A stretch of 44,663 nucleotides of DNA. It comes from an uncultured archaeon. GTDB taxonomy: Archaea > Asgardarchaeota > Lokiarchaeia > Sigyniarchaeales > SOKP01. The stretch spans positions 1 to 44,663 of the forward strand of contig CAYLZE010000035.1 of assembly GCA_964388035.1 (NCBI GenBank), read 5' to 3'. The position numbers and the translations under genes were made by a program. The notes beneath the pieces are model-generated. The model was given only the letters and a program-made list of their open reading frames with translations, did no database searches and was not told the origin of the DNA. Below are positions 34,284 to 35,444 of this stretch, piece after piece (position 1 is the stretch's first letter; each line of letters starts with the position of its first letter).

Positions 34284-34968
34284 TTACGTTTCAACGGTTT
34301 CAATAGATGGTTTTTCTAAATCAATAGTATAAATGGGGATTTCCTTTCTCTCTGTCGCATCATATAGGGGTAATCCCGATCTCTTTAGGTATTCGGGTTC
34401 CTTATATTTAAGAAGAACTACTTGACAATCACACGGGATTTTCATTTTTGCTACTCTTAGCCTGTCTCTAACGATCGGAAGGCTTTTTAAATACGTTCCT
34501 ATGTCCAATACCACCGATCCCGCCTTAACTCTCGCGCAAACCCCTGAAGGCCTTCCAAACGAGTTTCTCATTCCCGTTTGAACTCTGTCTGCACCTGCAA
34601 ATGCTAACATGCGGTTTTCTCGTATTTTTTGGAAGGGTTTTGAACGTATTCTTAATCGGAAATTTTGGTTTCCTAACTTTTTCTGAAGAATGCTGTTAAT
34701 GGTGACCCGTATTGCCTCTAATGCATTTGATGAGATTTGTACGTTCTTATTAACTTTTAGCCCAACTACTACTTCCCACTCTTCCCAAGGGATATCTTTA
34801 TTTCCTCCCCAGTATCTTGTAATCTTACTCTGAGTACCCCCTCTCGCATATTCACGCTTATGGTTTGCGCTCCTTTTGTGTTGATAGGGGCGTCTTGTCC
34901 ATCTCGCATATTGCCTCAAAAAGAGAGCAAAAATTTGCGTAGCAATGCCATGGACGGCGATGTGCCAT
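34284..34968 (-). CDS. rpl10e: 50S ribosomal protein uL16 (L10e), two exons join(34934..34968, 34284..34902); predicted 217 aa starting MAHRRPWHCYAKWTRRPY
   Basis: QISSNALEAIR, IRENRMLAFAGADRVQTGMRNSFGRP, AKMKIP; the RP..CY N-terminal motif is in a different frame from the body unless 31 nt are removed. Confidence 0.92.
34903..34933 (-). other. Candidate 31-nt bulge-helix-bulge intron in uL16 mRNA
   Basis: mRNA CUA-CGCA-AA^U-UUUUGCUCUC-UUUUU-GAGGCAAUA-UGCG-AG^A-UGG: 4-bp helix CGCA/UGCG, 3-nt bulges AAU and AGA; canonical cuts restore the frame. Confidence 0.8.
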
Positions 34969-35444
34969 ATTCAAGAAACCTCTTAATTTAGTGATAACTT
35001 ATATTATATAATTTATTTAAGATGTGCAGAAAAATAAGTTAAAATTAAAAAATTTTTCCATTTTAATGAATAATTTGAACCATAGCAATTAACAAATTGG
35101 TTTTATTTATTTATATATTCTCTATCATTTATATGATTTTCAAATTTAATTAACTCCTCAATTTTCTTAAAATTTCTTCTTTTCGTAGCATATTAATAAT
35201 AATCAGATATGGAAGCTTATTTCTTATCTGAATACCATTAGCCCATTAATTTCAATAAGAGAAAAATTGTGTAAAAGGTAATATTATAATAGGAATGAAA
35301 AGCTTCATTATGATAAATAATTGATTTTGATTATCTATCTTAATAAAATAATAGATAACATTATAATTTCTAAGAGGTTTCTTTTCTTAGAAGCCAATCG
35401 AATAATTCTTAAATAGTTATGTATAAAAGCTAATATTTATTACC

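What the first reader, a model, noticed from the sequence alone, without database searches (positions are those of the whole stretch)
34903..34933. Candidate tRNA-type (bulge-helix-bulge) intron interrupting the ribosomal protein uL16 gene of a probable Asgard archaeon
Seen in sequence: ATG 34968 gives MAHRRPWHCYA, the typical uL16 RP..CY N-terminus, but the frame continues NFCSLFEAICEMDKTPLSTQKERKP* and is out of frame with the conserved body. The intervening RNA folds as exon helix (CUA/UGG, extendable by UUG/CAA), central 4-bp helix CGCA/UGCG, two 3-nt bulges (AAU, AGA), and an intron hairpin (UUGC/GCAA, CUC/GAG, U5 loop). Cutting after the second nucleotide of each bulge removes exactly 31 nt and creates an AAA codon, giving MAHRRPWHCYA-K-WTRRPY in frame. 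Established: BHB motifs are cut by the archaeal splicing endonuclease EndA and ligated by RtcB; mRNA introns of this type are rare and best known from crenarchaeal cbf5. Inference: an essential ribosomal protein here depends on endonuclease-mediated mRNA splicing, and gene callers hide this by choosing TTG 34919.
Basis: partly seen in the sequence, partly recalled or inferred. Interest (0 to 1): 0.95.

Follow-up and report, generated by a model that had tools for sequence, protein, structure and literature searches.

The report
tRNA-type intron splits Asgard uL16 gene
The only gene for the essential ribosomal protein uL16 in this Asgard (Lokiarchaeia-type) archaeon is broken by a 31-base insert shaped like a tRNA intron, so its messenger RNA very probably has to be cut and rejoined by the tRNA-splicing enzymes; the papers I could search confirm this inside an archaeal coding sequence for only one gene, cbf5.

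Summary
Confirmed. A 31-nt insert (34933-34903, minus strand) separates the invariant uL16 N-terminus from the body of the only uL16 match in this genome. 112 family genomes read through without it, and a second sample's contig carries it unchanged. It forms a bulge-helix-bulge whose standard cuts restore the frame (shuffle P=0.002). A relative (JAGXNQ010000035.1) has an unrelated, stop-containing 30-nt BHB insert 11 nt downstream: an independent gain. A motif-free comparison with one relative found 15 ORF-breaking inserts of 30-39 nt in the two genomes. Thirteen pass a strict BHB test, against 0 of 13 ordinary in-frame inserts. This genome's dnaG intron is shared by 19 genomes (29-43 nt) with compensatory central-helix pairs. 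Two EndA subunits and RtcB are present. Best reading (0.9): EndA/RtcB splice the uL16 mRNA. No RNA run was listed, so splicing is inferred, not seen. Synonymous take-off and landing codons leave ribosomal hopping open at this locus alone. In print I found only cbf5 and one Haloferax 5' UTR intron. This scan noted the same class earlier on other DNA, including other genes of this genome; I found no earlier uL16 case.

The parts
34934..34968 (-). uL16 exon 1 (35 nt: MAHRRPWHCYA plus the first two bases of the Lys codon)
   Evidence: A2, R5, P6, W7, C9 and Y10 are each found in 80-81 of 82 family orthologues and are kept here
34903..34933 (-). 31-nt BHB intron (predicted)
   Evidence: absent from 112 family genomes; BHB score 17.0, shuffle P=0.002; identical in a contig from a second sample
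34284..34902 (-). uL16 exon 2, to the stop codon
   Evidence: PF00252 E 2e-24; NF003239 above its cut-off; 76 of 79 near-invariant columns kept over the whole spliced protein
34936..34939 (-). central helix, exon strand (CGCA)
   Evidence: pairs with 34908-34905; pair probability 0.93-0.99 in a 56-nt fold, about 0.32 in a 190-nt context
34933..34935 (-). 5' bulge AAU; predicted cut between 34934 and 34933
   Evidence: sequence; EndA cut rule (second/third bulge residue) as stated in PMC2738675
34909..34932 (-). intron hairpin (U-A, U.U, 4 bp, bulged U, 3 bp, U5 loop)
34905..34908 (-). central helix, intron strand (UGCG)
34902..34904 (-). 3' bulge AGA; predicted cut between 34903 and 34902
   Evidence: sequence
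34899..34901 (-). exon helix, 3' strand UGG (pairs with CUA 34942-34940)
   Evidence: pair probability about 0.6 in the 56-nt fold
34978..34982 (-). Shine-Dalgarno site GAGGT, 9 nt before ATG 34968
   Evidence: duplex with this genome's own 16S 3' end: -7.0 kcal/mol, against +1.3 for TTG 34919
34858..34860 (-). premature stop reached by the unspliced message (36-aa peptide)
35004..35011 (-). TATA-like box (TTATATAA), possible archaeal promoter
   Evidence: read from the sequence; inference only, not tested

Best explanation
The insert is a tRNA-type (BHB) intron in the uL16 mRNA. Shown: the insert, its geometry, restoration of the frame at the BHB cuts, the single gene match, and the presence of the enzymes. 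Inferred: (1) the 5' end of the transcript folds so that the last exon-1 bases pair with the intron's 3' end; (2) the two-subunit EndA cuts after the second base of each 3-nt bulge; (3) RtcB joins the exons into an AAA Lys codon and the 31-nt intron is released, possibly as a circle; (4) the spliced mRNA gives the 217-aa uL16, while unspliced mRNA gives only a 36-aa peptide. The intron was gained on this genome's own branch, because its sister genome lacks it. It is one of at least 12 such introns in protein genes of this genome. It is most likely tolerated because it is spliced efficiently, rather than kept for a regulatory purpose.
For: 112 family genomes are contiguous across the site. One uL16 match in a 96.7% complete genome. 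No sign of decay: 76 of 79 near-invariant columns kept, dN about 0.17 with dS saturated. BHB shuffle P=0.002. Independent uL16 insert in G134 = JAGXNQ010000035.1 (contig name gives coverage 103): 30 nt, in-frame TAA, central helix GUAG/CUAU, and its BHB cut gives the consensus WSRRP, P=0.0015; the tree needs two gains. Census: 13 of 15 ORF-breaking 30-39 nt inserts pass the strict BHB test, against 0 of 13 in-frame inserts of 21 nt or more and 3.3% of random coding windows. The dnaG intron of this genome occurs at the same site in 19 genomes, with lengths 29-43 nt in all three frames; all 76 central-helix cells pair, and the wobble position co-varies (C-G 9, A-U 7, U-G 2, G-U 1... G-C 1). The EndA catalytic subunit is closest to Aeropyrum EndA and keeps the Lys44-equivalent of the broad-specificity loop (PMC3241643). 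A second, non-catalytic-looking subunit and RtcB are present.
Against: No spliced RNA or peptide has been seen. No relative shares this particular intron, so there is no covariation for it. In a 190-nt context the central helix has only about 0.32 predicted pairing probability, and the exact BHB is 2.6 kcal/mol above the local minimum-energy fold. Synonymous take-off and landing codons flank this insert. The BHB score is my own heuristic, and the 15-insert set was cut by length after I had seen the list.
Confidence: 0.9

Rival explanations
1. Translational bypassing: the ribosome hops 31 nt from TAC/GCA to the synonymous TAT/GCG past a hairpin, giving ...HCYARW without any RNA splicing.
For: At this locus the take-off and landing codons are synonymous (Tyr/Tyr, Ala/Ala), and the YAR product fits the G080 orthologue slightly better than YAK.
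Against: Only 2 of 15 inserts have identical and 3 of 15 synonymous take-off/landing codons. In dnaG the exon and intron ends co-vary by complementarity (19 of 19), not by identity (9 of 19). Lys is the family consensus at position 12 (51 of 82; Arg 4 of 82). The duplication is expected from a near-palindromic central helix.
Confidence: 0.03
2. A +1 frameshift or transcriptional slippage on a U/T run gives a continuous protein with a 10-residue insert in the N-terminal hook.
For: Two T runs lie in the insert, and losing one base restores the frame.
Against: No orthologue has an in-frame, stop-free insert there. The A_AAU_UUU heptamer would shift -1, into a stop. Slippage cannot explain the stop-containing 30-nt inserts in G134 uL16 and in 7 other genes of this genome.
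Confidence: 0.02
3. Translation starts at TTG 34919 (MRQYARW...), and a shortened uL16 without the RPWxC motif is used; the old start is a relic.
For: An open 211-aa frame exists and keeps the YAxW motif.
Against: TTG has no Shine-Dalgarno site (+1.3 against -7.0 kcal/mol). All six invariant exon-1 residues are kept. Point mutants in the yeast uL16 N-terminal hook impair 60S biogenesis (PMC2577338).
Confidence: 0.02
4. The insert is an assembly artefact, or the copy is a recent pseudogene with a functional copy missing from the bin.
For: The genome is a draft (96.7% complete, 7.3% contamination). The confirming contig has low depth and comes from the same year and habitat.
Against: A second sample has the identical sequence. 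A random insert would form this BHB in about 0.2% of shuffles. The gene shows no decay and there is no second copy.
Confidence: 0.03

Closest known systems
cbf5 pre-mRNA intron of Crenarchaeota (Desulfurococcales, Sulfolobales; Watanabe 2002; Yokobori 2009, PMC2738675)
   Same: Short intron (16-44 nt there, 31 nt here) inside a coding sequence; BHB at the exon-intron borders; cuts between the second and third bulge residues; hetero-oligomeric EndA; the unspliced message cannot make the protein.
   Different: cbf5 is one old intron in one gene, with splicing shown by cDNA. This is a branch-specific gain in a ribosomal protein gene of an Asgard archaeon, with a second independent gain 11 nt away in a relative, among at least 12 such introns in one genome. 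Splicing is not yet shown here.
HVO_1309 5' UTR intron of Haloferax volcanii (Schwarz 2020, PMC7714728)
   Same: BHB intron in an mRNA, cut by EndA and recovered as a circle.
   Different: 46 nt and in the UTR, so translation does not depend on frame restoration. That paper names cbf5 as the only other mRNA case.
Asgard tRNA introns (Goswami 2026, bioRxiv 10.64898/2026.10.13.758758) and this genome's own tRNA introns
   Same: Same motif, similar length (about 23-41 nt in my refolding), repeated recent gains, two-subunit EndA.
   Different: Those interrupt tRNAs; the paper never mentions mRNA. No tRNA intron or other sequence in this genome resembles the uL16 insert.
Translational bypass elements (phage T4 gene 60; byps of Magnusiomyces mitochondria)
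   Same: Short hairpin-containing coding gap.
   Different: These need matching take-off and landing codons, which 12 of 15 inserts lack; the inserts show complementarity to the exon instead. The properties of these elements are from my own knowledge; I only listed, and did not read, the papers.

Membership tests
Archaeal BHB (EndA-dependent) mRNA intron, cbf5 type | 4-bp central helix with two 3-nt bulges on opposite strands | tested here: met
   CGCA/UGCG with AAU and AGA; shuffle P=0.002
Archaeal BHB (EndA-dependent) mRNA intron, cbf5 type | flanking exon and intron helices | tested here: met
   3-bp exon helix; intron helix with a U.U mismatch at the second position
Archaeal BHB (EndA-dependent) mRNA intron, cbf5 type | cuts after the second bulge base restore a conserved reading frame | tested here: met
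   217-aa ORF collinear with the orthologues, with consensus Lys at the junction
Archaeal BHB (EndA-dependent) mRNA intron, cbf5 type | host encodes a hetero-oligomeric EndA with catalytic Tyr/His/Lys and a broad-specificity loop, plus an RNA ligase | tested here: met
   two PF01974 genes; one aligns with Aeropyrum EndA including the Lys44 equivalent, the other lacks the His; RtcB E 9e-166. Sequence only, no activity.
Archaeal BHB (EndA-dependent) mRNA intron, cbf5 type | structure conserved by covariation among orthologous introns | tested here: inconclusive
   no relative shares the uL16 intron; covariation is shown for the dnaG intron of the same genome
Archaeal BHB (EndA-dependent) mRNA intron, cbf5 type | spliced mRNA or excised intron observed; cleavage by EndA | not testable with these tools
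   needs RNA from this organism or an in vitro assay
uL16/L10e | Ribosomal_L16 domain and RP..CY N-terminus | tested here: met
   PF00252, NF003239 above its cut-off; the N-terminus is present only after removal of the insert
Translational bypass element | matching take-off and landing codons | tested here: inconclusive
   synonymous but not identical at this locus; not met in 12 of 15 inserts of the class
Group I/II self-splicing intron or other Rfam RNA | ribozyme core | tested here: not met
   31 nt is too short; no Rfam match in the window

The most novel reading that the evidence does not exclude
Splicing of protein-coding mRNA by the tRNA endonuclease and RtcB is a routine, genome-wide step of gene expression in Lokiarchaeia. 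At least a dozen genes per genome can need it (here uL16, DnaG, TFE-alpha, NadE, actin; EF-2, PurA and RNase HII in a relative), and new introns are still being gained in essential genes. A narrower extra, that the uL16 5' end is hit repeatedly because splicing regulates uL16 supply, is not excluded but weak (about 0.07).
Probability: 0.8. Interest if true: 0.9.

Novelty: new variant of a known kind. Interest (0 to 1): 0.78.

Why it matters
In the papers I could search, splicing inside an archaeal coding sequence is confirmed for one gene only. If this holds, an essential ribosomal protein, and many other core genes, of the closest prokaryotic relatives of eukaryotes are made from spliced mRNA, by the same endonuclease/RtcB chemistry that eukaryotes keep for tRNA (and RtcB for XBP1 mRNA; own knowledge). 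The two independent, branch-specific gains in uL16 give datable events for the open question of how BHB introns arrive. In practice, gene callers truncate or drop such genes, which biases Asgard marker-gene and gene-content analyses. The uL16 case is easy to test: ribosomal protein mRNAs are usually abundant, and the junction peptide (YAK, YAR, a 10-aa insert, or an MRQY start) separates all four mechanisms.

Tried and rejected
No RNA holder was listed for this stretch; this is no evidence either way. The exact TTG-start protein is not on record. The metagenome scan gave 8 loci, none with the insert. No donor for the insert was found in the genome within 7 mismatches. No further uL16 inserts: 3' part in 82 genomes, 12 genomes of a second family, other order- and class-level loci. 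MFE z-scores are uninformative. dS is saturated, so no dN/dS ratio could be computed. The -1 slippery heptamer leads to a stop and was rejected. The sigma-70 promoter scan does not suit archaea and was at background. The first, loose census was dominated by false alignments upstream of start codons and was replaced by a flank-identity filter. The census cannot see introns shared by both genomes and covers only genes with a relative in G080, so its counts are lower bounds. A hot spot at the uL16 5' end is only hinted at by two events. Literature searches found no paper on Asgard mRNA introns, but the library lacks most subscription journals, and PMC2738675 notes that introns in other archaeal protein genes had been predicted without confirmation.

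Full report
OBSERVATION. On the minus strand ATG 34968 reads MAHRRPWHCYA and then leaves the uL16 frame, ending at TAA 34860-34858. The conserved body is in the frame that an ORF finder opens at TTG 34919 (PF00252; NF003239). Removing 34933-34903 gives a 217-aa protein reading ...HCYAKWTRRP. Folding energy alone is unremarkable (z -0.8 to -1.8). The BHB geometry is not: P=0.002 against shuffles of the insert, allowing any of 17 cut positions, and 0.04% of random coding windows score as high. A contig from a second salt-marsh sample spans the site without differences. One caution: the insert is flanked by TAC GCA and TAT GCG, so several neighbouring excisions also restore the frame, and only the BHB selects the Lys product.

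THE GENE IS NEEDED AND EXON 1 IS USED. The genome (96.7% complete) has one uL16 match. Of 117 family genomes with a match, 112 read through the N-terminal region without an insert. Three are uninformative (an N gap or contig ends), one is this genome, and one has a different insert. Relatives are labelled Promethearchaeota/Promethearchaeia in the public records, which places the window in the Lokiarchaeia-type Asgard archaea. Six exon-1 residues are nearly invariant in 82 orthologues and all are kept; 76 of 79 near-invariant columns are kept overall; Lys is the consensus at the junction. The Shine-Dalgarno site pairs with this genome's 16S end at ATG 34968 (-7.0 kcal/mol) and not at TTG 34919 (+1.3). 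In yeast, point mutants in the uL16 N-terminal hook impair large-subunit biogenesis (PMC2577338).

A SECOND, INDEPENDENT uL16 INTRON. G134 (JAGXNQ010000035.1) has a 30-nt insert with an in-frame TAA, 11 nt downstream of our site and unrelated in sequence. Its best BHB (central helix GUAG/CUAU, 6-bp intron helix) cuts so as to give the consensus WSRRP, P=0.0015. On a 91-sequence tree the two carriers are separated by well-supported branches and their closest relatives lack inserts, so two gains are needed. No inserts were found in the 3' part of the gene in 82 genomes or in a second family.

THE CLASS IN THIS GENOME. I fetched a whole relative (G080, 2.27 Mb) and aligned its proteins to this genome, and the reverse, allowing DNA inserts without reference to any motif (1448 and 1617 genes). 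Clean internal ORF-breaking inserts cluster at 30-39 nt: ten in this genome and five in G080. In this genome they lie in uL16, DnaG, TFE-alpha, NadE, AMP phosphorylase, an LsrF-type aldolase, an FGGY kinase, an acyl-CoA dehydrogenase, an NAD-dependent epimerase and one gene of unknown family. In G080 they include EF-2, RNase HII and, by its motif, PurA. Thirteen of the 15 pass a strict BHB test, against 0 of 13 in-frame, stop-free inserts of 21 nt or more and 3.3% of random coding windows. Every BHB cut restores the reference protein. A looser pass adds two introns in the actin gene, so at least 12 in this genome. The dnaG site looks split in roughly 33 of 58 family genomes. In the 19 that I read at this site the intron is 29-43 nt long, in all three frames, and all 76 central-helix cells pair; the third base of the exon Gly codon co-varies with its intron partner. 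Kin are not independent, but free length change with compensatory pairing is what a spliced intron predicts, and neither a pseudogene nor frameshifting does.

MACHINERY. Two EndA-family genes and RtcB are present. One subunit matches Aeropyrum EndA best (E 1e-35) and has the catalytic Tyr, His and Lys and the loop Lys equivalent to Lys44, which gives broad substrate range in that enzyme (PMC3241643). The other lacks the His and is probably structural. Many tRNA genes carry introns of similar size.

MECHANISM AND RIVALS. Most likely (0.9), EndA cuts the folded 5' end of the mRNA at both bulges and RtcB joins the exons; unspliced mRNA yields only a 36-aa peptide. The cleavage and ligation steps are inferred. 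Ribosomal hopping (0.03) is possible at this locus because the flanking codons are synonymous, but it fails for 12 of 15 inserts and for the dnaG covariation. Slippage (0.02) would put ten residues into an invariant region and cannot handle stop-containing inserts. A downstream start (0.02) lacks a ribosome-binding site. Artefact or pseudogene (0.03) is opposed. A regulatory role for the uL16 intron is speculative: it is confined to one branch, and two events do not establish a hot spot. The origin of the insert is unexplained; no donor exists in the genome.

COMPARISON WITH WHAT IS KNOWN. It works like the crenarchaeal cbf5 intron (16-44 nt, same cut rule; PMC2738675) and meets every sequence-level feature that could be tested, but RNA proof is missing. 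A 2020 study lists cbf5 as the only earlier mRNA case and adds a Haloferax 5' UTR intron (PMC7714728). A 2026 preprint documents repeated BHB intron gain in Asgard tRNAs but does not mention mRNA. My searches found no paper on Asgard mRNA introns, within the library's limits. This scan has noted the same class before, in other genomes and in other genes of this genome; these are unchecked AI notes, I consulted them only after my own census, and they are not counted as evidence. I found no earlier uL16 case.

VERDICT. Real feature, first reading supported; a new variant of a known kind. Interest 0.78.

Noticed in passing
L228 / L042 (JAGXNQ010000035.1), about nt 47-76 of the uL16 coding sequence: Independent 30-nt BHB insert with an in-frame TAA in uL16, 11 nt downstream of the window's site.
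   Followed up: yes
G000 C5:43881 and C5:43947 (+): The actin gene has two BHB inserts (33 and 31 nt) near its 3' end that share the internal word CGAAAGAGAT, which hints at a common origin; the first is in frame without a stop.
   Followed up: partly
G000 C50:290, C23:37074, C45:19136, C32:9853, C63:5704, C149:3790, C4:56314, C5:29421, C8:91044: Further 30-39 nt BHB-type inserts in DnaG, TFE-alpha, NadE, AMP phosphorylase, an LsrF-type aldolase, an FGGY kinase, an acyl-CoA dehydrogenase, an epimerase and an unknown gene. Weaker candidates at C89:18588 and C19:12296.
   Followed up: partly
G080 C1:1382056, 292032, 2145571, 1097293, 879172: BHB-type inserts in EF-2, probable PurA, RNase HII (inside the DEAGRG motif), a small zinc-ribbon protein and an unidentified ORF.
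   Followed up: partly
L260 (G155 dnaG): A different 31-nt BHB insert seven codons upstream of the shared dnaG intron site: another independent gain.
   Followed up: partly
L008, L019, L032 and others: About 10 of 82 uL16 orthologues have an Ile codon (ATA or ATC) at the start position behind a good Shine-Dalgarno site, suggesting non-canonical initiation in this family.
   Followed up: no
L024 (G008:C54): A 100-N assembly gap lies exactly over the uL16 start, so an insert there cannot be excluded.
   Followed up: no
L043 (G074:C75:23781-24056): A second, truncated uL16 copy (open frame 101 aa); G136 has two full copies. Contamination or duplication.
   Followed up: no
G000 C7:54735-54839: ARAGORN calls a tRNA-Pyl (cta) with a 32-nt intron; the intron has a good BHB, but the anticodon call may be wrong because intron placement shifts it. 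Only 22 tRNA genes were called in all, so many multiply interrupted tRNAs are probably missed.
   Followed up: no
L206, L176, L180, L190, L196 and similar: Public records labelled Nanopelagicaceae, Thorarchaeota, Hermodarchaeota, Odinarchaeota or Hodarchaeota carry uL16 that falls inside this Lokiarchaeia family: probably mislabelled or mis-binned records.
   Followed up: no
window 34284-34400: uL16 has a C-terminal tail of about 40 residues beyond the 172-position archaeal models, giving a eukaryote-like length (217 aa); shared by the family.
   Followed up: no
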